IMG/VR virus record: IMGVR_UViG_2585427780_000001
Length of the DNA: 13,691 bases
Source: a virus
Lineage: Duplodnaviria > Heunggongvirae > Uroviricota > Caudoviricetes
Reading direction: 5' to 3' (one strand)
Shown piece after piece: positions 1,478-11,751 of the stretch. A model generated the notes under the pieces. The model was given only the letters and a program-made list of their open reading frames with translations, had not been told where the DNA came from and made no database searches. The position numbers and the translations under genes are program-made. Each line of letters begins with the position of its first letter. Within the stretch, counting starts at the first letter, position 1.

Positions 1478-1807
1478 CTATGCCACGACCTGTTCAAAAT
1501 CTGCCGTTATGGTTACCCACAGCGCCCCCACGCTTGCCGACCATTTACGACAAACCACCCTAATCGGTTTCCAGTCATAAGGTGGCGTCCACTGAAATGC
1601 GCGGACGCCACCGTGCCGTTCCAGAAAGGCTTTTAAAGATGGGTGTTCACATTTACGAACACGTATCGTCACGCTGTAAGTCGACAACTGGTTATTCAGT
1701 CCCGCCGCACGACGCTGTTCATAACCATCGCCCAGCTTCACTGTCACCACTTTCGGCTCTGATACCACATTCATATCCGGGCGCACTTTCCAGTGAAACG
1801 TCTCCAT
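1478..1807 (-). CDS. M: Minor tail protein M, 109 aa
   Basis: ORF 1478..1807, 109 aa as for lambda gpM. Translation METFHWKVRPDM ... FEQVVA resembles lambda M (MKTFRWKVKPGM ... FEQVVN, from memory). Its ATG at 1807-1805 overlaps the H stop TAA (1809-1807) by 1 nt. Confidence 0.85.
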   Translation of the reverse strand: METFHWKVRPDMNVVSEPKVVTVKLGDGYEQRRAAGLNNQLSTYSVTIRVRKCEHPSLKAFLERHGGVRAFQWTPPYDWKPIRVVCRKWSASVGALWVTITADFEQVVA

Positions 1808-4491
1808 TACCGATATGCTCCACTTAACCGACCACCATCACGGGCCTGCTGTTGCATAAAGTCCGCTGCTGCTTTTTTCCCGAGGTCATAAACCACCTTC
1901 AGGGCAGCCGGACCTATCTGCCCGTTCGTGCCATCGTTATTGATCTCGATGTTGTACTGCGGGGCAAACATCGCCATACCTGAACCACCAATATCCGCCA
2001 CAACCCCCAGCTTACCGTCAGCACCACGACGCAGAGGCAGAATGGCTTCAGGCCCAGCTTCCCCCATCACACCTGCACCTTTTGCAAAAGCAAAAAACGT
2101 CGGACGGTTAACCACCGTGCCACTGTAGCGACTCAAATCAGCAGACTGATAAACACCACCATCAGCATTGGGCGTCACACTGGCAGTTGCTGCACTCCCC
2201 CAGCCAAACGCCGAACCAATCCCCTTAACTGTCTGCATCATGGACATCTGAGCCATGATTTTTGCCAGATCAGAAAGGAGCGAGGCGGTAAAAGATTTGA
2301 AGTTCAGTTTTCCGGTGGTACAGAATGTAGCCAGTGCATTACCTGCACTATTAAATGCCGCTGTAAGCATCTGCTCCGCAGTGCCTGCCGCATTATCCGC
2401 ATCTGCCGTGAAATTCTGAAACGCCCGCATGGCACCGTTTTTCCAGTTACCCTGAGCAATTTCAAGCTGTTGCCAGTAACGGCGATTCTCATTCAGTTGC
2501 CTGTTCAGGCTCTCCGTCAGCGCCTGCTCGGCCTTTCTGTAGTCATCCGTGTTATATGTCCCTTTCTGCTCACTATCCCGCCTCAACTGCTCCAGCTGTT
2601 GCTGGTATTTCTGGCGAAGGCTCAGTTGTACCTGATATCGCTGCCGCTGCTGATCACCCATACCCACCGTGGCGATATCCAGGTCATGTTGCTGACGCTG
2701 AGCGCGCTCTTCTTCAGCCAGTTGACTGGTCAGCTGAATTGTTTTTTTCTTCAGATCGTTGAGTGCCGTCTGTTTCTGAAGCTCCTGCTGTTTTACATCC
2801 AGCAGCGTCAGTGCCTGAATCAGTTCATCTTTACGGGCCAGCACACTCTTTTCATCTGCCGTCAGTTTTTTCCCGTCCAGATCGCTGATGCGCTGCTGCA
2901 GAGCCAGAAGCTGTTTATGCGCTTCTGTCATCTTTTCAGTGGCAATGCCTGCTGACTGTCTTGCAGCAGCAATCTGTCCTTCCACCTGTGCCTGTTGCTG
3001 GCTGTACTGCAGCAATAACCGGGTGGCCTCATCATTACGGGTTTCGCGTGTTTTTTTCTTACCGGATGCCAGGGCTTTCTCGTAACGTTCATTTTCACGT
3101 TGTATCGCCGCATCCCTGACAGCCTGATCGGCGTACTGCATGGCATTAATACGCGCAATTTCACGCTGATGTCGTGCTGCTTCCGTTTCATTCATCCGGT
3201 TCAGTGCAGCATTTTCAGCATTACGGCGTTTCTGTTGCTCCTGATAATTCCGCTCTGCCTGCTCTTTTGCATCCTGCAAATCCTTCTGGCGTTTTTTCTC
3301 CTGAAGATCGTTAAGACGCTGCTGATCGTATTCAACCTGAGAAGATGATGCCGTCCAGGGGAGTCTTTTCGCCCGCGACACTTTCTCCTGTAAAGCGGCA
3401 ATCTGTTCATCCAGCGAGTCTTCACGACCAATATTCATGGCCGCATCCCAGAAACGACTCCACAAATCAGACAGATACTTCAGCGTACTGCCAAGCGCAT
3501 TGAGGTTATTATCAATATCCGCAGTACGCCGACCGGTTTCCTCTGCCAGTGCAGACATGGCTATCCGTGCAGCATCACTGGACCGCCCCTGCTCCCCAAG
3601 GACGCGTATCTGCTCAAGCTGAGTGGCAGTAAGAAAATGCAGCTCATTGTCCAGAGCCTTCGCGGCATTTACAGGATCATCCTTCAGCCGCTTAAACTGA
3701 TTTATGGTATCGCTGACCGACTGGCCAACCGATCGCTCCATCTGTGCGGCAGCTCTCGCCACCATACCGATATCGTTTCCACGAAATGCACCACTCCCCA
3801 CCACCTGAGCCAGCGCACCGGCTGCAGCATGTTGCGTGATACCATTCCCGGAAATAGCACGACTGAGCGTCCACAGCTGCCCGGCAGTAACTCCGGCATA
3901 ATGCCCCGTCAGCGACAACTGGCGGTTAAATTCTTCCCCCTCCTTCTGACCGTCATACCAGGCTTTACCCAGACCATAGACGGCCGCGGCAATACCGCCA
4001 ATAACCCCGCCAAGCATCATGCCTTTCGGTGACATCAGTGTGTCTATCCATCCGGCACGGTTAGCCAGCGTTATCCCGGATCCCCTCAGCGCCCCTAAAT
4101 TGCCGCGGGCCAGTTCACCTATCAGAACGCCTATCTCCTGGCGGGCTGCTGCACTTTTCAGACCCAGCGAATGCGTGGCTTTTCCTGCCTGCTCCATTTT
4201 GCGGATATACACTTCTGCAGCACTGCTTACCCCCAGCTGGGCTGCCTTAGCACGAAGCAACTCAGAAGATGAAAGATTCTGGCGGGTTGCCTGCTCTTTA
4301 AGCTGACGGATAAACGCCACTTTCTGTCGGGTAGCCTCTTCCTCAGCCTGTGTAAGAACACGGGTTTTCGCCGTAACCTCAGAAATCAGCGCCAGATAAT
4401 CCTGCTGACCAATCCCGCCACTGTTTCTGGCCTGTCGGATCTGCTGCTGAATACGCTGTAATTCCTGCAGCCCCGCACTGGCCTGTTTCAC
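1807..4491 (-). CDS. H: Tail tape measure protein H, major 894-codon segment downstream of an in-frame TAG (GTG at 4491 is only the first in-frame start-like codon after the stop)
   Basis: ORF 1807..4491. Has a hydrophobic Gly-rich segment (LMSPKGMMLGGVIGGIAAAVYGLGKAWYDGQ), a long charged Q/E/R/K-rich coiled-coil-like middle, and a C-terminus NNDGTNGQIGPAALKVVYDLGKKAAADFMQQQARDGGRLSGAYR like the lambda gpH C-terminus. It is in the same frame as 4504..4881. Confidence 0.85.
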   Translation of the reverse strand: MKQASAGLQELQRIQQQIRQARNSGGIGQQDYLALISEVTAKTRVLTQAEEEATRQKVAFIRQLKEQATRQNLSSSELLRAKAAQLGVSSAAEVYIRKMEQAGKATHSLGLKSAAARQEIGVLIGELARGNLGALRGSGITLANRAGWIDTLMSPKGMMLGGVIGGIAAAVYGLGKAWYDGQKEGEEFNRQLSLTGHYAGVTAGQLWTLSRAISGNGITQHAAAGALAQVVGSGAFRGNDIGMVARAAAQMERSVGQSVSDTINQFKRLKDDPVNAAKALDNELHFLTATQLEQIRVLGEQGRSSDAARIAMSALAEETGRRTADIDNNLNALGSTLKYLSDLWSRFWDAAMNIGREDSLDEQIAALQEKVSRAKRLPWTASSSQVEYDQQRLNDLQEKKRQKDLQDAKEQAERNYQEQQKRRNAENAALNRMNETEAARHQREIARINAMQYADQAVRDAAIQRENERYEKALASGKKKTRETRNDEATRLLLQYSQQQAQVEGQIAAARQSAGIATEKMTEAHKQLLALQQRISDLDGKKLTADEKSVLARKDELIQALTLLDVKQQELQKQTALNDLKKKTIQLTSQLAEEERAQRQQHDLDIATVGMGDQQRQRYQVQLSLRQKYQQQLEQLRRDSEQKGTYNTDDYRKAEQALTESLNRQLNENRRYWQQLEIAQGNWKNGAMRAFQNFTADADNAAGTAEQMLTAAFNSAGNALATFCTTGKLNFKSFTASLLSDLAKIMAQMSMMQTVKGIGSAFGWGSAATASVTPNADGGVYQSADLSRYSGTVVNRPTFFAFAKGAGVMGEAGPEAILPLRRGADGKLGVVADIGGSGMAMFAPQYNIEINNDGTNGQIGPAALKVVYDLGKKAAADFMQQQARDGGRLSGAYR

Positions 4492-4503
4492 ACTGTCAAT
4501 CTA

Positions 4504-4881
4504 ACGATAAAACGCAGCAGCCGCTTTATCCTGAGCCTCCGCCAGAGCCATGGCCTGCGCCTGTTCATCGCGCATTTTCTGGCTCAGCGCCTCCATGCGC
4601 TGGCGGGTTTTCTCCACCTCGCGGGCCATGCGTTCATGAGCCTGTGCGTTCTTCTCCACCGTCTGCGCATGGACGGAGGCGGCTGTTGCAGCCGAAGAAG
4701 CCGCCTGCGTTGTCTGCCGGGCGGCCTGAGTCTGACGCTCCATAAAACGCTGCATACGGGCAGAAGACCGTTCTGCATCGCTGGCGGCACCATTCAGAAG
4801 GTTTTTGATACGGGGAATTTCATTTTTAAACTCTGCCGCATCAATCCCCAAATCAATGACCAGGTTGGCTATCTGGTCCAT
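4504..4881 (-). pseudogene. H: Tail tape measure protein H, N-terminal 126-codon segment ending at in-frame TAG (4503-4501)
   Basis: ATG at 4881-4879 preceded by GGAGGTG 8 nt upstream. Translation MDQIANLVIDLGIDAAEFKNE... resembles the lambda gpH N-terminus (MAEPVGDLVVDLSLDAARFDEQ, from memory). Same reading frame as 1807..4491 (4911-4491 = 420, divisible by 3), separated from it only by TAG plus 3 codons. Confidence 0.75.
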
Positions 4882-5203
4882 AACGCACACCTCCGGAAAT
4901 ACCTTCTCCAAGATGCATCAGTTCTTCGTCCGTTCGCTCCGGTATCCCGTTCTCTTCCGGTAAAAGGCTGAAATCAGCCACCGCAGCATCACTGCTGCCG
5001 GACACCATTCTCACGATCAATGCCTTCAGCGAGGCAAACTGCGCATCCATCCACACATCACTGAAGCTCTGCATCCGGAAATAATCGCCCCACTCACCAA
5101 GCTCAGTGGCCGACATTTCCGACAGCATCCGCCGCCAGTCTGCCCGCCGGAACTCCCGGGCAAGCCGCATGACAAACTGCATTTCCCGCGTCAGGACTTT
5201 TCC
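4853..5203 (-). CDS. T: T portion of tail assembly chaperone gpGT, reached by programmed -1 frameshift from G
   Basis: ORF 4853..5182 is in the -1 frame relative to G. That frame is open upstream to a stop at 5218-5216 and overlaps the last codons of G. Sequence GGAAAAG (5203-5197) lies 1 codon before the G stop, where lambda has its G/GT slip site. Its 3' end overlaps the H start by 29 nt. Confidence 0.7.
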   Translation of the reverse strand, partial: GKVLTREMQFVMRLAREFRRADWRRMLSEMSATELGEWGDYFRMQSFSDVWMDAQFASLKALIVRMVSGSSDAAVADFSLLPEENGIPERTDEELMHLGEGISGGVRYGPDSQPGH

Positions 5204-5577
5204 GGCGTCAGCGCCTCATGCTCATCATCCCCGGCATTATCAATGGCCCCCATACCGCTCAGCGACAGAACCATCTCCGCCCCCGCACCCAGGGCATCAT
5301 ACGACCATGTTGTAATAACGGATGCGCAAAGCGTCTCTACATCCTTAGACTGATCCGCATTCCACAGTGAGCGGGAAACCAGCCAGGCATTGATATCCAT
5401 CCCCATCCGCAGAAAAGCAATCTGTCGTTCAGCCTCCGGCAGTTCTCCCTCCCCGGCATCAAACTTTGCCGTTCGCTGCTGAACAAACGCCAGATATTCA
5501 ATTCTCTGCAGCCCGGACAGCTCACTGAGCACCACGGACTGTTTTTCATAATTAAACGTGCCCTGTTTCAGAAACAT
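5191..5577 (-). CDS. G: Tail assembly chaperone G, about 128 aa
   Basis: ORF 5191..5619. Chosen start is ATG at 5577-5575 (MFLKQGTF..., like lambda gpG MFLK...) with GGAG 6 nt upstream; a second ATG lies at 5580. The ORF-track start at 5619 is TTG and would overlap the upstream terminator hairpin. Contains SELSGLQRIEYLAF, like lambda G SELSALQRIEHLAL. Confidence 0.75.
   Translation of the reverse strand: MFLKQGTFNYEKQSVVLSELSGLQRIEYLAFVQQRTAKFDAGEGELPEAERQIAFLRMGMDINAWLVSRSLWNADQSKDVETLCASVITTWSYDALGAGAEMVLSLSGMGAIDNAGDDEHEALTPEKS
5197..5203 (-). promoter_or_regulatory. Candidate -1 programmed ribosomal frameshift heptamer G GAA AAG (G to GT)
   Basis: Minus-strand sequence ACG CCG GAA AAG TCC TGA ends gene G. 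Shifting -1 at GAA AAG gives GGA AAA GTC CTG ... which continues into the T frame. The lambda site is G GGA AAG (established knowledge). Confidence 0.55.
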
Positions 5578-5593
5578 CATGTTCTCCACCTGC

Positions 5594-5617
5594 AAAAAAG
5601 CCCCGGATAACCGGGGC
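5594..5617 (-). terminator. Rho-independent terminator-like hairpin between V and G (GCCCCGG-UUAU-CCGGGGC followed by U6)
   Basis: Plus 5600-5617 gccccggataaccggggc preceded by aaaaaa (5594-5599). On the minus-strand transcript this is a perfect 7-bp GC-rich stem, a 4-nt loop, then UUUUUU, sitting 20 nt after the V stop. Confidence 0.6.
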
Positions 5618-5637: not shown

Positions 5638-6381
5638 TTAACCTGCGGCGCTGACAGCCACCGCAGCCACGGCCACAAAATCGCCGTCAGAAGTCATGCC
5701 CACAATGCTGACACTGCCCTGCTTCACGCCTTTCACCGTGGCCACAAGCCCGTTCAGGGTCACCGTGGCAGTCTGTGGATCTGTCGAATGTACACTGATC
5801 GCTTTGTCACTGGCTCCGTCAGGTTTTACTGTAAAGGTCAGCGTGGTGGTTGCTCCCACTTTTACACTGGCAGATGCTGGTGCCACCGTCAGCCCGGTAA
5901 CGCTCACTGTTTCAGTGCCTTCCTCTGCCAGATGCGGACGCCCCACACCGCTGATTTTCACTGTGCGGGTCATCACGTCTTTTGAGGCAATGGTTTTACC
6001 CAGTGAGCTCAGCCAGCCACGGAAAACATCAACAGTGCCGTTGGGATATTTGATACGAAACGCGCAGACTTCACCGGAGTCGAACAACTGAACCAGTTTT
6101 TTCTGCCCGCTGTCACCCGGACGCCAGGCCAGCGTCGCCGAAGTATCACCGACGGATTTCTGCCCCTGGGTTGTCGTTTTCCAGTCTGCATCTTCATCAT
6201 CGAGATAAGTGTCATCTTCTGCATCAGCGGTCATTTCGCCAGGTTGCAGATCCTTCACCATCGCAAGACGCAGCCAGTCAGTGTCCGATAAAGGGTTCGC
6301 AAACGCATCGCCCTTGCCGGTGTACATCCAGAACGTCGTTCCCGCACCTTTCGTTTTTGCCAGTGGATTTGGTGTGGTCAT
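5638..6381 (-). CDS. V: Major tail tube protein V with C-terminal Ig-like (Big_2-type) domain, 247 aa
   Basis: ORF 5638..6387. ATG at 6381-6379 is preceded by AAAGGAGGTG; the ORF-track start at 6387 is GTG. Translation MTTPNPLAKTKGAGTTFWMY...YLDDEDADW...NGTVDVFRGW matches lambda gpV motifs, and the C-terminal Thr/Val/Ser-rich segment is typical of the gpV Ig-like domain. Confidence 0.9.
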   Translation of the reverse strand: MTTPNPLAKTKGAGTTFWMYTGKGDAFANPLSDTDWLRLAMVKDLQPGEMTADAEDDTYLDDEDADWKTTTQGQKSVGDTSATLAWRPGDSGQKKLVQLFDSGEVCAFRIKYPNGTVDVFRGWLSSLGKTIASKDVMTRTVKISGVGRPHLAEEGTETVSVTGLTVAPASASVKVGATTTLTFTVKPDGASDKAISVHSTDPQTATVTLNGLVATVKGVKQGSVSIVGMTSDGDFVAVAAVAVSAAG

Positions 6382-6392
6382 TGCCACCTCCT

Positions 6393-8058: not shown

Positions 8059-10017
8059 TTACGCCGTACATTTCACCAGACCGCGGTGATCAACTGGCGC
8101 GACACCGGCGTCAATACGCACTTTCGTTGTCACGCCATCCACACTGAAGCCCTCCATCTGATCAATATATGGCGTATCCACACCGTTGAGATAAGCCACT
8201 TCAATCGTATCGGAGCCTTTTGACGCAGCCAGGTAGAAGGTGGTCTGGCTGTTATCATCAAGACGAGGCTCTGCAATAACGGTCGCAAAATCTTTCACCG
8301 GGTTAATAATACCGGCGTTAATGTCAGCCCCCTTGACACTTGAGGAGCGAATGACCTGGTTAGCAACAGACTCCATCGCCGTCGGTACCAGTACGAACGC
8401 AGGACGAATATTCAGATGACGCTCCCCCTCTTTCTGAACGCGCATCAACTGGCGGGCTTTATCCAGCGATGCCACGTCCATTGCAGCGCTCTCCAGTACG
8501 TTTGCATGTTTCGCTTTATCGAACAGACTTACATTATCTGTGGAGATTTTCGGGTTAGACGTCAGAATGGCATAAACCAGATCGGCAATAGTGGATTTCG
8601 CCGCACGGCCCAACTTCATCGGGACATCGGTCAGCATATTCAGATAATCATTGATAATGGCCTGACGGGTGATACTGAACAGCTCGCCATAGGTCGCCAG
8701 TGCAATAGTGGCCTGTTTATCTCCGGTGGTGACGTATTTATATTCCGCCCCTTCACGCACCTGACGCAGAGCACTGAAGCCCCCCATACCCACACGATGG
8801 GCAATTTTAAAATCAGACAACTGACCTGTCCGCGTCCACTGTTCATAGGTTTCAGGGGCATCTTCCCAGCCCTGCAGAATGGCTTTGTTCGCAACATCCA
8901 GCAGAATATTACCGAAGTCAGACGTACTGTGTGTGAACGCCGCACCGACCATCTGCATCGGGTTATAACTGGAAACCCCAATACCCCGTTCAGTCAGTGA
9001 CATACGGGCATATTCACGCAGGGTCATCCCGTTGTAGACATTATCACGTTCGGTTTTTTCAAATCCGGCACGCGCCATCAGCGCCTGGCGGATCCCGTCC
9101 CCCACAAAATTACCGTTACCGGCATAAATATGAGCCGGGGGATTTTTATTGGATGGCGTGGACTCGCGCCCCATCTCGTTCAACAGCTTTTCGCGGGCCT
9201 GCTCCAGCGAACATTCAGGATCGGCAAGACACTGAGCCTGCAGCGTCTGATAACGCCCGCCAAACATGGCAAACAGATCATTAATACCGTTTACACGCGC
9301 TTTTTGCTCTGCCAGTACCTGCGCACGGATGCTGTTTTCATCCACCACGGGTGCTGCTGCCTGCACTGGCGTCCGGGAGGCTTCAGGTTCATTATCCTGT
9401 ACGCGTGGAGCACTGTTGCGTGGCGGAGTAATCATGTTTCGAATGGATTCCGGCATCTTTTTAAATTCCTCTGTACGTTTTGACTGAATACATGCCATTG
9501 CCTTAACGGCTGGCGTTACCTGATCAGCAAATCCATGTGCCAGACATTCGGCACCGGACATCCAGGTCTCATCCGCCAGCATGGCAGCAATTTCATCGGT
9601 GGTTTTCCCGGTTTTCTGTGCATAAGCGGGTAACAGAACCGCCTCAACTTTATCGAGCAGGTCGGCATAGGTGCGCATGTCCTCCGCATCACCGCCCGTA
9701 AAGCCAAATGGTTTATGAATCATCATGAAGGTGTTTTCCGGCATAATGACCGGGTTTCCCACCATCGCAATGACCGACGCCATTGATGCCGCCACACCGT
9801 CGACATAAACGGTAATGGACGCACCATGTGTTTTCAGCGCATTAAAAATGGCGATGCCTTCAAAGACATCGCCACCCGGTGAATTGATATGGAGATTAAT
9901 GTGGGTGATATCGCCCAGTGCATTCAGATCACTGATAAACTGCTTCGCTGTAACACCCCAGAAACCAATCTCGTCATAAATATAAATATCCGCGTCACTC
10001 TGGTGACCAGCCTGCAT
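8059..10017 (-). CDS. Fused prohead protease (ClpP-like) - scaffold - major capsid protein, about 652 aa
   Basis: ORF 8059..10278. The first ATG after the portal stop is at 10017-10015 (MQAGHQSDADIYIYDEIGFWG...); earlier in-frame starts would overlap the portal gene out of frame. The N-terminal part looks ClpP-like (INSPGGDVFEGIAIFNA...ASMASVIAM), the middle is Ala/Gln/Glu-rich, and the C-terminal half looks like a phage major capsid protein. Confidence 0.85.
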   Translation of the reverse strand: MQAGHQSDADIYIYDEIGFWGVTAKQFISDLNALGDITHINLHINSPGGDVFEGIAIFNALKTHGASITVYVDGVAASMASVIAMVGNPVIMPENTFMMIHKPFGFTGGDAEDMRTYADLLDKVEAVLLPAYAQKTGKTTDEIAAMLADETWMSGAECLAHGFADQVTPAVKAMACIQSKRTEEFKKMPESIRNMITPPRNSAPRVQDNEPEASRTPVQAAAPVVDENSIRAQVLAEQKARVNGINDLFAMFGGRYQTLQAQCLADPECSLEQAREKLLNEMGRESTPSNKNPPAHIYAGNGNFVGDGIRQALMARAGFEKTERDNVYNGMTLREYARMSLTERGIGVSSYNPMQMVGAAFTHSTSDFGNILLDVANKAILQGWEDAPETYEQWTRTGQLSDFKIAHRVGMGGFSALRQVREGAEYKYVTTGDKQATIALATYGELFSITRQAIINDYLNMLTDVPMKLGRAAKSTIADLVYAILTSNPKISTDNVSLFDKAKHANVLESAAMDVASLDKARQLMRVQKEGERHLNIRPAFVLVPTAMESVANQVIRSSSVKGADINAGIINPVKDFATVIAEPRLDDNSQTTFYLAASKGSDTIEVAYLNGVDTPYIDQMEGFSVDGVTTKVRIDAGVAPVDHRGLVKCTA

Positions 10018-10063
10018 CCTGAACCAGGAATTATTCTTCGGACTGGTCGTCGGTGTACTGCGG

Positions 10064-11539
10064 CTACTGTCGTTTCGTTGCGGCACTGCTGCCTCCTTTA
10101 TCACTGGCCGGATCGGTATCAAATACCAGGTCCAGCTTGCGGTTTTCATCAATTTCGGCCTTGCGCCGACGTTTGACATCATCCGGATTACGACCACCTG
10201 CACGTACCCAGTCTGATTCTGTCGCCGCTCCACCACGAATCTGGATTTTCCAGGCCTCAGCCTCCTTAACAGGGTCAATCCACGGCATCACCGGTCCGGA
10301 ATACACCGCGGTATACAGTGAAGAACGGTCAAGATCGCGGGGTAGCCTGATAACACCGGATGCCACAGCCTGTTTCAGCCAGGCACGATACATCGGGCGG
10401 GTGACGGCACCAATAAACCAGTCCTGCAGGATCAGGTAGCCATCAGTGGATTCAACCAGCTCCTGACGCTGGGCGCTGTAAGTGCCGTTATAGTTGCGCG
10501 CTGTACTGGAAAAACTCAGACGACTGCCCGCCGCCACGGCACGCAACTGAGCATTACGAAAAGTTTCAAGGTTAGGATTTGGGCGATCCGACTTCACCAT
10601 TCCGATTTCTTCGCCGGGTTTCAGATCGTCGTAAATAATGCCTGGCTGAATGGTAAGCTCGCGTTCATTCTCCTTGCTGTCATTACCATCCGTTTCATAG
10701 CTCTGTCCGTCGCCTTTGCGGATGTACATCCCCAGAGCAGCGGCGACCCTTGCTGCAGTCAGCTCAGAATCTTCATACTCTTTCAGGGCGCTGAGGCGGA
10801 TCAGCACACCGGACAATAAAGACGTCCCGCGCATCTGGTGCAGACGGCGAACAAATTTAAGATGCAGCATTCGCTCTGCATCCACTTCTTTGGTTTCCAT
10901 CTGCCGTCCGGATACAGGACGACTTTTATACACCAGATATTTTTCGGGACGCCCCCAGTCATCAACAAACACGCCCTGATTCAGCCTGTTGCTCTCATCA
11001 CTGGTCATGGGAATAAAGTCCGGCTCGAGCGCCTCCAGCCAGAAATGAACACCGGCAGAAGGCGTCAGGCTGTTTATGCGCCCGGAAACCATCTGGGCAA
11101 ACACCTCACCATCGCGCAGCCAGGTACGAAGCATCAGACGTTCCAGCATCGGACGGGTAAACTGCCCGGTGACTTCCGGGCTGACAGACCATTCACTCCA
11201 TCGGGTGCGAATCTCCGCAGCCAGGTCACGGGCAATGGCCCCATTGCGTAATACCGGATGTGGCTCGACAATAATCCCGTTTTTCCCCACCACCCGTTCT
11301 TCCAGCTTGTCAAATACACCAATAACCAGATCGTGGTTGTTATCAAGGTAACGGGCCTGCTCACGTAACGACACGGCCCCGTACTGGCTTAACTGGTCGG
11401 CAGTTCGGTTCTCCCGTCGGGCTTTGTGTGTCCGCGTCGTTTTTACGGCCTCATAAGCCTGGATCACCGCACGGGAACGCAGCCTTGCCGCTTTCCATCC
11501 TGGTGAAAAAACGCCAATCACATCATCAAGAATTGCCAT
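10064..11539 (-). CDS. Portal protein, about 491 aa
   Basis: ORF 10064..11611. ATG at 11539-11537 overlaps the W stop (TGATG) and has GAGG 5 nt upstream. Size and position between the W-like gene and the protease-capsid gene are those of a lambdoid portal; the start codon is uncertain (11611 is possible). Confidence 0.8.
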   Translation of the reverse strand: MAILDDVIGVFSPGWKAARLRSRAVIQAYEAVKTTRTHKARRENRTADQLSQYGAVSLREQARYLDNNHDLVIGVFDKLEERVVGKNGIIVEPHPVLRNGAIARDLAAEIRTRWSEWSVSPEVTGQFTRPMLERLMLRTWLRDGEVFAQMVSGRINSLTPSAGVHFWLEALEPDFIPMTSDESNRLNQGVFVDDWGRPEKYLVYKSRPVSGRQMETKEVDAERMLHLKFVRRLHQMRGTSLLSGVLIRLSALKEYEDSELTAARVAAALGMYIRKGDGQSYETDGNDSKENERELTIQPGIIYDDLKPGEEIGMVKSDRPNPNLETFRNAQLRAVAAGSRLSFSSTARNYNGTYSAQRQELVESTDGYLILQDWFIGAVTRPMYRAWLKQAVASGVIRLPRDLDRSSLYTAVYSGPVMPWIDPVKEAEAWKIQIRGGAATESDWVRAGGRNPDDVKRRRKAEIDENRKLDLVFDTDPASDKGGSSAATKRQ

Positions 11540-11751
11540 CAGAACCTCGCCAGCCGATACCCGGGATGCCCCCGTCGTCGTGTAATCAGAGCCGCAAGGC
11601 GGCGCTCCCACTCCTGCCGTCCCTGCCTGATCTCAGATAAGTTTTCCATGGTCATCTGCTGACCATTAAAGGTGACGGATTTTCCGTCCAGCACCGCCAT
11701 TTCAGCTTCCGTATAACGCTGAATCATGGCTTCGATATCATTCTGGTTCAT
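11539..11751 (-). CDS. W: Head-tail joining protein, gpW-like, about 70 aa
   Basis: ORF 11539..11757. ATG at 11751-11749 forms an ATGA overlap with the terminase stop and has GGAGG 6 nt upstream; the ATG at 11757 has the SD abutting it. Size and position (terminase then W then portal) match lambda W. Confidence 0.7.
   Translation of the reverse strand: MNQNDIEAMIQRYTEAEMAVLDGKSVTFNGQQMTMENLSEIRQGRQEWERRLAALITRRRGHPGYRLARF

What the first reader, a model, noticed from the sequence alone, without database searches (positions are those of the whole stretch)
5191..5218. G/GT programmed -1 frameshift is conserved but uses heptamer G GAA AAG, not lambda G GGA AAG
The T frame has no start of its own near G: it is open from the stop at 5218-5216 and overlaps the last 8 codons of G. 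The only slippery-looking sequence in that window is GGAAAAG (5203-5197), 1 codon before the G stop, the same position as the lambda site. The P-site codon is GAA rather than GGA, so after slippage the re-paired codon GGA would need a G-U pair at the middle position; efficiency could differ from lambda and set a different G:GT ratio.
Basis: partly seen in the sequence, partly recalled or inferred. Interest (0 to 1): 0.45.

Follow-up and report, generated by a model that had tools for sequence, protein, structure and literature searches.

The report
Ordinary phage tail-chaperone frameshift site
This is the usual ribosome-slipping signal that lambda-like phages use to make a small amount of a fused G-T tail-assembly protein, and its "odd" sequence GGAAAAG is in fact the commonest version in this phage family and was already annotated in phage N15, so it is real but ordinary.

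Summary
The sequence facts hold. On the minus strand, G (5580/5577..5191) ends CCG GAA AAG TCC TGA. The -1 frame opens after TGA 5218-5216 and encodes a lambda-T homologue. GGAAAAG lies at 5203-5197 in the X XXY YYZ phase. It aligns base for base with lambda's GGGAAAG, one G-to-A difference.

Across 76 distinct relatives, the heptamer is conserved at three synonymous G-frame positions, and codon periodicity switches from the G frame to the T frame exactly at it. In some relatives the permitted overlap shrinks to the heptamer plus 3 nt. A -1 shift here is therefore well supported, by comparison only.

The implied unusualness is wrong. GGAAAAG is the majority slip site of lambda-type G/T pairs:
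- 21 of 29 sequence clusters in IMG/VR.
- 47 of 65 loci in species-representative genomes, from over 20 enterobacterial genera.

The N15 GenBank record already labels this heptamer as the slippery sequence.

Three details are off:
- T does have an in-frame ATG (5182-5180), which public annotations use as its start. It is not conserved and has no usable Shine-Dalgarno sequence.
- Lambda's site is five codons before the G stop, not one.
- The junction peptide is TPEK-VLTRE, with one K.

Efficiency relative to lambda is untested.

The parts
5191..5580 (-). Gene G, the tail assembly chaperone. It is 129 aa from ATG 5580. The second ATG at 5577 aligns with lambda Met1 and has the better Shine-Dalgarno spacing. 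Stop TGA at 5193-5191.
   Evidence: Translation. Pfam PF06894 Phage_TAC_2, E 1.8e-39, profile positions 1-123 of 126. RBS comparison.
5197..5203 (-). Slip heptamer G GAA AAG. Zero-frame codons are GAA (5202-5200) and AAG (5199-5197). After a -1 shift the tRNAs sit on GGA and AAA, and the next codon read is GTC (5197-5195).
   Evidence: Sequence. Aligns with lambda GGGAAAG. AAA is invariant, and the first and last G are conserved at synonymous sites in 76 relatives. The same heptamer is annotated as the slippery sequence in N15.
4853..5215 (-). The T reading frame, -1 relative to G. It opens after TGA 5218-5216. The part translated in the GT fusion is 5197-4856, and the stop is at 4855-4853. 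Predicted GT is 128 + 114 = 242 aa, written complement(join(4853..5197,5197..5580)).
   Evidence: Translation. Pfam PF06223 Phage_tail_T, E 5e-15, profile 1-73 of 73. The 242-aa fusion matches mEp460 and Tritos at 100% in two tblastn pieces, and lambda at 35%.
5216..5218 (-). TGA stop in the -1 frame. It sets the upstream limit of the shift window, 12 nt before the heptamer.
5180..5182 (-). In-frame ATG in the T frame, 8 nt after the G stop. Public records use it as the T start. It is probably an internal Met that replaces the family's conserved Leu.
   Evidence: Annotated start in mEp460 and PGAP. The column is CTG in most relatives. It has the weakest anti-SD pairing of the local starts, -4.3 kcal/mol at zero spacing, against -10.8 for H. 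T-frame codon periodicity already holds upstream of it.
5214..5217 (-). SD-like GAGG with 10 nt between it and the heptamer. It is a possible weak local stimulator, shared with Gifsy-2 but not conserved across the family.
5594..5617 (-). Terminator-like hairpin plus T run between V and G. This is context: it is likely to lower transcription into G-T-H.
   Evidence: Annotated as a rho-independent terminator in mEp460 and N15.
5638..6387 (-). Major tail protein V homologue with a C-terminal Ig-like domain. It is the upstream neighbour, which is synteny evidence.
   Evidence: Pfam Phage_TTP_12 9e-67 and Big_2 1.9e-11.
1807..4881 (-). Tape measure gene H, the downstream neighbour. Its start overlaps the end of T. 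This copy is interrupted by an in-frame amber codon at 4503-4501.
   Evidence: Pfam TMP_2, TMP_4 and Tape_meas_lam_C. Amber codon.

Best explanation
This is the lambda-type G/GT tail-assembly-chaperone recoding site.

Most ribosomes translate G to its TGA and make gpG (about 128 aa). A minority slip back one nucleotide when tRNA-Glu sits on GAA in the P site and tRNA-Lys on AAG in the A site. tRNA-Lys re-pairs perfectly with AAA. tRNA-Glu re-pairs with GGA through two Watson-Crick pairs and one middle G.U. Translation then continues with GTC into the T frame and gives a 242-aa GT fusion (...ALTPEK-VLTREMQF...). By analogy with lambda, the fusion links the tape measure protein to the major tail protein during tail assembly.

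The heptamer acts on its own. No conserved downstream RNA structure or upstream Shine-Dalgarno-like element accompanies it.

Shown here: the homology, the frame arrangement, nucleotide-level conservation of the heptamer, and the switch of coding constraint at it. Inferred: that the shift occurs, its efficiency, and the roles of the two tRNAs.
For: - G and T are Pfam-confirmed homologues lying between V and H.
- The heptamer aligns with lambda's proven site and differs by one base. The T-frame peptide from it is GKV... in both.
- In a gap-free alignment of 76 distinct relatives, AAA is invariant. The three G-frame synonymous positions inside the heptamer have entropies of 0.50, 0 and 0.10 bits, against 1.5-1.9 bits at the ten upstream third positions.
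- The most variable codon phase switches from G-frame position 3 (1.85 bits) upstream to T-frame position 3 (1.24 bits) immediately downstream. This holds before the window's ATG.
- Across relatives the permitted overlap narrows to 3 nt plus the heptamer. The T frame opens 3 nt upstream in L184 and L210. The G stop directly follows the heptamer in L199, Providencia PSTCR8lys, L223 and L229.
- The first G is kept at a wobble position of Pro, Ala or Leu codons, which argues that P-site re-pairing matters.
- N15 annotates the identical heptamer as the slippery sequence. Gifsy-2 annotates its T homologue as part of a frameshift hybrid.
- Lambda shifts about 4% of the time and needs the GT product (PMC3296357; PMC5009743).
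Against: - I found no direct measurement for this heptamer in any phage G/T context.
- In a reconstituted E. coli system, G GAA AAG gave mainly 0-frame product and served as the less slippery comparison (PMC6924986).
- A_AAG alone, without a stimulator, was barely above background in a lacZ reporter: 0.147% against 0.112% on average for tetramers (PMC4066793).
- Rare relatives have heptamers with no P-site re-pairing (CGCAAAG, GGCAAAA), so A-site slippage alone may be enough.
- This copy's tape measure gene has an amber codon, so the module may no longer be under selection in its host.
Confidence: 0.85

Rival explanations
1. T is made as a separate 109-aa protein from ATG 5182-5180, for example by termination-reinitiation after the G stop 8 nt upstream. 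No frameshift would then be needed. This is how mEp460 RefSeq and PGAP annotate the locus.
For: There is an in-frame ATG 8 nt after the G stop. Public records call T from it.
Against: The ATG column is CTG (Leu) in most relatives, and many have no start codon there. The anti-SD pairing is the weakest of the local starts and abuts the ATG. T-frame coding constraint and homology (V-L/F-x-x-E) begin at the heptamer, upstream of the ATG. This model does not explain the synonymous-site conservation of the heptamer. In lambda the T sequence is expressed only as the frameshift product gpGT.
Confidence: 0.07
2. The shift is a single-tRNA event. Only tRNA-Lys slips on A AAG, and the GG in front is irrelevant, so the functional motif is the tetramer and not a heptamer.
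For: A-AA-R is the only part that never changes in the alignment and the two censuses. Variants AGAAAAG, AGGAAAG, CGCAAAG and GGCAAAA exist. tRNA-Lys is the notably shifty tRNA in E. coli (PMC4066793).
Against: The first heptamer base is G in 69 of 76 distinct sequences although it is a synonymous third position. Four of the six A's there belong to the AAAAAAG class, where A restores re-pairing. The second base is G in 72 of 76. A_AAG alone is barely shifty without a stimulator, and no conserved stimulator exists here.
Confidence: 0.15
3. In this particular copy the site is a relic. The prophage is defective because of the amber codon in H, and the heptamer persists only because too little time has passed for it to decay.
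For: TAG at 4503-4501 replaces the CAG found in every relative checked: 0 of 1809 E. coli records and 0 of 101 loci carry it.
Against: G, the heptamer and T are intact and identical to those of the plaque-forming phages mEp460, cdtI and Tritos. A single amber codon could be suppressed or could be very recent. This rival concerns current use, not what the element is.
Confidence: 0.3

Closest known systems
Phage lambda G/GT programmed -1 frameshift (G GGA AAG; Levin, Hendrix & Casjens 1993, cited in PMC5009743 and PMC3296357)
   Same: Homologous G and T proteins (35% identity over the fusion). Same V-G-T-H gene order, same -1 overlap and the same aligned site. The A-site codon is AAG in both, and the T-frame peptide starts GKV in both.
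   Different: Heptamer position 3 is A, not G. The P-site codon is therefore GAA (tRNA-Glu) instead of GGA (tRNA-Gly), and re-pairing has a middle G.U. The G stop is 1 codon after the site rather than 5. T is shorter: 114 against 144 residues after the shift.
Phage N15 genes 14/15 (NC_001901, misc_feature 10027..10033 'slippery sequence for -1 translational frameshift')
   Same: The identical heptamer GGAAAAG in the same phase (GCG GAA AAG) at the homologous site of a G/T pair. HK225, phi80, mEp213, Klebsiella Kp4865-4 and Providencia PSTCR8lys share it.
   Different: The proteins are only about 36% identical to the window's (HK225 as the N15-like example). In N15 the G stop lies 5 codons downstream.
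Gifsy-2 STM1039 / STM1041.1n ('part of G+G' frameshift hybrid protein; Lambda gpT homolog')
   Same: It is the closest non-identical relative, at 54.5% identity. The local sequence ACG CCG GAA AAG TCC TGA is identical, and GAGG lies 10 nt upstream in both.
   Different: It is a Salmonella prophage, and its G tail and T N-terminus have diverged.
G GAA AAG model mRNA of Peng et al. 2019 (PMC6924986)
   Same: Exactly this heptamer, decoded by E. coli tRNA-Glu and tRNA-Lys. The authors state that tRNA-Glu would face a second-position mismatch on GGA.
   Different: The context was a minimal in vitro mRNA in which the first G belongs to the AUG. It served as the less slippery comparison and gave mainly 0-frame product. 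It has no phage context.
E. coli dnaX A AAA AAG frameshift
   Same: A -1 shift driven by tRNA-Lys on AAG.
   Different: dnaX depends on an upstream SD-like element and a downstream stem-loop. Neither is conserved here.

Membership tests
Lambda-type G/GT tail assembly chaperone with programmed -1 frameshift | The upstream ORF is a gpG-family chaperone. | tested here: met
   Pfam PF06894 Phage_TAC_2, E 1.8e-39, nearly full length.
Lambda-type G/GT tail assembly chaperone with programmed -1 frameshift | The downstream ORF is a gpT-family domain in the -1 frame and overlaps the 3' end of G. | tested here: met
   Pfam PF06223 Phage_tail_T, E 5e-15. The frame is -1 and the overlap is 25 nt.
Lambda-type G/GT tail assembly chaperone with programmed -1 frameshift | The pair lies between the major tail protein and the tape measure protein. 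| tested here: met
   V (Phage_TTP_12) lies upstream and H (TMP_2, Tape_meas_lam_C) downstream. Order confirmed in mEp460.
Lambda-type G/GT tail assembly chaperone with programmed -1 frameshift | A conserved slippery sequence lies inside the overlap, in the correct phase. | tested here: met
   GGAAAAG in the G GAA AAG phase. It is conserved at synonymous sites across 76 relatives, and the coding phase switches at it.
Lambda-type G/GT tail assembly chaperone with programmed -1 frameshift | T has no independent translation start. | tested here: inconclusive
   An in-frame ATG exists at 5182. It is not conserved and lacks a usable SD. Reinitiation cannot be excluded from sequence alone.
Lambda-type G/GT tail assembly chaperone with programmed -1 frameshift | A GT fusion protein is made at a low, fixed ratio to G (about 1:30 in lambda). 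| not testable with these tools
   This needs a reporter assay, western blot or mass spectrometry.
Canonical X XXY YYZ simultaneous-slippage heptamer | Positions 1-3 are identical, so the P-site tRNA keeps its two non-wobble pairs after the shift. | tested here: not met
   Positions 1-3 are G, G, A. P-site re-pairing needs a G.U at the middle position (described in the same way in PMC6924986). Positions 4-7 (A AAG) do fit.
dnaX / IS-type stimulated -1 frameshift | A downstream stem-loop or pseudoknot, or a conserved upstream SD-like element, acts as stimulator. | tested here: not met
   Downstream fold z-scores are -1.2 and -0.13. The family consensus structure is only -1.49 kcal/mol, with 4 trivial pairs and no covariation. 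Anti-SD pairing 4-15 nt upstream has a median of -3.6 kcal/mol, no different from the other heptamer classes.

The most novel reading that the evidence does not exclude
Biochemists use G GAA AAG as a poor-slippage control, yet it is the preferred natural slip site of lambda-like G/T genes. Both of its tRNAs (Glu-UUC and Lys-UUU) carry the mnm5s2U34 modification, and the thiolation level of that modification is known to tune lambda GT production. So GGAAAAG-type phages might set a different G:GT ratio from lambda. Or their ratio might be doubly sensitive to the host's tRNA-thiolation and sulfur status, which would make tail assembly a read-out of host physiology.
Probability: 0.2. Interest if true: 0.4.

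Novelty: already known. Interest (0 to 1): 0.15.

Why it matters
The practical value is in annotation. In this very common E. coli prophage family, whose tape-measure segment is found in 1806 of 5426 complete genomes, RefSeq and PGAP call T as a free-standing 109-aa protein. They omit the 242-aa GT fusion.

The family-wide count also corrects a textbook impression. Lambda's canonical G GGA AAG is the minority form, and the near-cognate G GAA AAG is the norm. This bears on frameshift-prediction tools that look only for X XXY YYZ, and on anyone who uses G GAA AAG as a non-slippery control.

It does not reveal a new mechanism.

Tried and rejected
- Downstream stimulatory RNA structure: rejected. 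Folding of 57 nt and 97 nt after the heptamer gave z-scores of -0.13 and -1.2. RNAalifold on 76 sequences found only 4 invariant pairs more than 60 nt downstream and no covariation.
- Upstream SD-like stimulator: not general. The window and Gifsy-2 share GAGG at 10-nt spacing, but cluster representatives of the GGAAAAG class do not differ from other classes (median -3.6 against -3.15 kcal/mol). About half of the GGAAAAG sequences have an SD-like tetramer upstream, largely because of Glu-rich tails.
- Other GGAAAAG copies on the coding strand (4185-4179 in H, 7753-7747): both are in the GGA AAA G phase, so they are not slip sites (phase worked out from the ORF coordinates).
- Transcriptional slippage: considered and set aside. 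A run of four A's is too short; this rests on general knowledge and was not tested.
- Literature: searches for GGAAAAG or 'G GAA AAG' with frameshift, phage or tail terms found only Peng 2019 as relevant. Xu et al. 2004 (Mol Cell) and the Xu et al. J Mol Biol paper on chaperone-protein interactions (PMC3907469) are not held. So I could not check whether GGAAAAG sites were tested experimentally there.
- PRFect (PMC10885494) lists a 'twofour' slip motif that GGAAAA would fit by its name, but its supplement text does not define the motif.
- The first related-loci run returned only relatives at 96-100% identity, which is uninformative for conservation. I replaced it with a motif-based scan.

Full report
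**What is in the sequence.**
All genes in this part of the window run on the minus strand.
- G starts at ATG 5580. A second ATG at 5577 aligns with lambda's Met1.
- G ends ...GAG GCG CTG ACG CCG GAA AAG TCC TGA, with the stop at 5193-5191.
- The frame one base upstream (-1) has a TGA at 5218-5216. It is then open for 120 codons to the stop at 4855-4853.
- GGAAAAG lies at 5203-5197. Its first G is the third base of the CCG codon, so in the G frame it reads G GAA AAG.
- The overlap between the two frames is 25 nt and contains no other slip-like motif.
- The heptamer itself is not rare. It occurs five times in the window against 1.9 expected, and 13 of 200 shuffles reach that number. The two other coding-strand copies are in the GGA AAA G phase. 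The signal is therefore position and phase, not occurrence.

**What the genes are.**
- G matches Pfam Phage_TAC_2 (lambda gpG) at 1.8e-39.
- The -1 frame matches Phage_tail_T at 5e-15.
- The upstream gene is a lambda-type tail tube protein with an Ig-like domain, and the downstream gene is a tape measure protein.
- The region is 99.2-99.7% identical to phages mEp460, cdtI, Tritos and relatives.
- This is the classic V-G-T-H block of a lambdoid tail module.

**Relation to lambda.**
- Lambda reads GCG GGA AAG TGT TCG ACG GTG AGC TGA. The window reads CCG GAA AAG TCC TGA.
- From the heptamer, the T-frame peptides are GKVFDGELSFALKLAREMGRPDWR in lambda and GKVLTREMQFVMRLAREFRRADWR in the window. 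The two sites are therefore homologous base for base and differ by one G-to-A change at heptamer position 3.
Lambda's site is five codons before its G stop, and the window's is one.
- The predicted fusion is 128 residues of G plus 114 of T, 242 aa, with the junction ...ALTPEK-VLTRE... and a single Lys.

**Is the heptamer the shift site?**
I collected relatives without specifying the heptamer. The scan looked for a degenerate DNA pattern encoding the conserved T motif LARE(F/M)xRxDWR, which lies 32 nt downstream.
- The first 120 IMG/VR hits gave 76 distinct 137-nt segments (window included) that align without gaps.
- The AAA of the heptamer is invariant.
- The three positions of the heptamer that are synonymous in the G frame have entropies of 0.50, 0 and 0.10 bits. 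The ten G-frame third positions upstream have 1.5-1.9 bits.
- With one representative per 95% cluster, the most variable codon phase is G-frame position 3 upstream of the heptamer (1.85 bits against 1.30 and 1.22).
- It is T-frame position 3 immediately downstream (1.24 against 0.82 and 0.73). That downstream stretch ends before the window's ATG.
- In some relatives the T frame opens only 3 nt before the heptamer. In others the G stop follows it directly. The overlap common to the family is therefore essentially the heptamer.

Together this is strong comparative evidence that translation changes frame at GGAAAAG.

**How unusual is G GAA AAG? It is not.**
- Among 14 diverse phage G/T pairs, seven use GGAAAAG: the window, Gifsy-2, mEp213, phi80, HK225, Klebsiella Kp4865-4 and Providencia PSTCR8lys. 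Five use GGGAAAG (lambda, 21, Turner and two PhiR phages). Two Stx phages use AAAAAAG.
- In the IMG/VR sample, the raw counts are 61 GGAAAAG, 47 GGGAAAG and 7 AAAAAAG, with single cases of AGAAAAG, AGGAAAG, CGCAAAG and GGCAAAA.
- After clustering at 90% identity, the counts are 21, 3 and 2 of 29 clusters.
- In one-genome-per-species bacterial assemblies, 47 of 65 validated loci carry GGAAAAG, from more than 20 enterobacterial genera.
- Twelve of the 16 GGGAAAG loci there carry the lambda sequence itself (identical over the 37 nt inspected) and sit in unrelated organisms, several on short low-coverage contigs. This is most simply explained as contamination.
- The GenBank record of phage N15 marks GGAAAAG at 10027-10033 as 'slippery sequence for -1 translational frameshift'.
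- The Gifsy-2 record describes its T homologue as part of a frameshift hybrid.

The variant is therefore both common and already recognised. Lambda is the exception.

**Mechanism.**
- After a -1 slip, tRNA-Lys (AAG to AAA) re-pairs perfectly.
Peng et al. 2019 state the same for this sequence.
- The first G is conserved at a wobble position (69 of 76), and four of the six A's there belong to the AAAAAAG class. This argues that P-site re-pairing is selected for, so the site works as a heptamer and not just as A AAG.
- Rare natural variants with no possible P-site re-pairing (CGCAAAG, GGCAAAA) show that the Lys slip is the indispensable part.
- No auxiliary stimulator is evident. Downstream folds are no better than shuffles, the family has no conserved structure, and SD-like pairing upstream is not a family feature. 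The window and Gifsy-2 do share GAGG with a 10-nt gap.

**Efficiency.**
- I found no measurement for a phage GGAAAAG site.
- In vitro, G GAA AAG gave mainly 0-frame product and was called less slippery than G GGA AAG.
- In a lacZ reporter, A_AAG alone was barely above background without a stimulator.
- Lambda's site shifts about 4% of the time, and its level responds to 2-thiolation of tRNA Lys/Glu/Gln.
The dominance of GGAAAAG in nature suggests that it delivers an adequate ratio.
- One point follows by inference only: here both slip-site tRNAs carry the thiolated U34.

**Independent start for T?**
Both mEp460 RefSeq and PGAP use it as the T start.
- It corresponds to the conserved Leu of the E-L-x-F motif and is CTG in most relatives.
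- It has the weakest anti-SD pairing of the local starts, directly abutting the ATG: -4.3 kcal/mol against -10.8 for H.
- T-frame constraint begins upstream of it.
- I rate independent initiation as unlikely, at about 0.07, but sequence alone cannot exclude it.

**Verdict.**
However, the heptamer is the family norm and has been annotated as such in the N15 record. The finding is ordinary. Its main use is to correct annotation of the GT fusion in this widespread prophage family.

Noticed in passing
window 4501-4503 (minus strand), inside tape measure gene H (4881..1807): There is an in-frame amber codon TAG at codon 127 of about 1024, where every relative has CAG (Gln). The TAG version occurs in 0 of 1809 matching complete E. 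coli records (best match 98.4%, one mismatch) and in 0 of 101 fetched loci. This copy looks like a freshly inactivated prophage, or an amber mutant that needs suppression.
   Followed up: yes
window 5180-5182 and 4853-5182; L001 (mEp460) 1944-2273; L216 (E. coli E2865) 651-980: Public annotations (mEp460 RefSeq, PGAP) call T as a separate 109-aa CDS from an internal ATG and do not annotate the GT slippage product. Ayreon starts T even further downstream. This is probably a systematic mis-annotation for this prophage family.
   Followed up: partly
window 5594-5617 (minus strand): A strong terminator-like hairpin (GCCCCGG TTAT CCGGGGC, then six T) lies between the major tail gene V and G. It is also annotated in mEp460 and N15. 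It may attenuate transcription into G-T-H.
   Followed up: partly
L226, L227, L230, L231, L237, L246, L249, L262, L270, L278, L280, L285 (genome contigs): The G/T junction in these loci is identical to phage lambda over the 37 nt inspected. They come from assemblies of unrelated organisms (Neobacillus, Oceanobacillus, Kitasatospora, Paenibacillus, Enterococcus, Shewanella, Pseudomonas, Chromatium and others), and several are short, low-coverage contigs. This is most simply explained as lambda DNA contamination of those assemblies.
   Followed up: no
L208 (CGCAAAG), L169 (AGAAAAG), L170 (AGGAAAG), L176, L239, L264 (GGCAAAA followed directly by TAG): Rare G/T pairs have a heptamer that allows little or no P-site re-pairing. 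Only the A-AA-R Lys slip is kept, and in the GGCAAAA cases a stop codon comes immediately after. These would be natural test cases for single-tRNA slippage.
   Followed up: partly
A1 columns 17-18 (window 5217-5216): There is an invariant G and a nearly invariant A five codons upstream of the Lys codon. They form a conserved Glu/Asp codon in an otherwise highly variable G tail. Whether this reflects the G protein, the nascent peptide or an mRNA signal was not resolved.
   Followed up: no
window 8059-10278 and 10064-11611 (minus strand): Two large ORFs, of 739 aa and 515 aa, overlap upstream of the tail genes in the head-gene region. I did not examine them.
   Followed up: no
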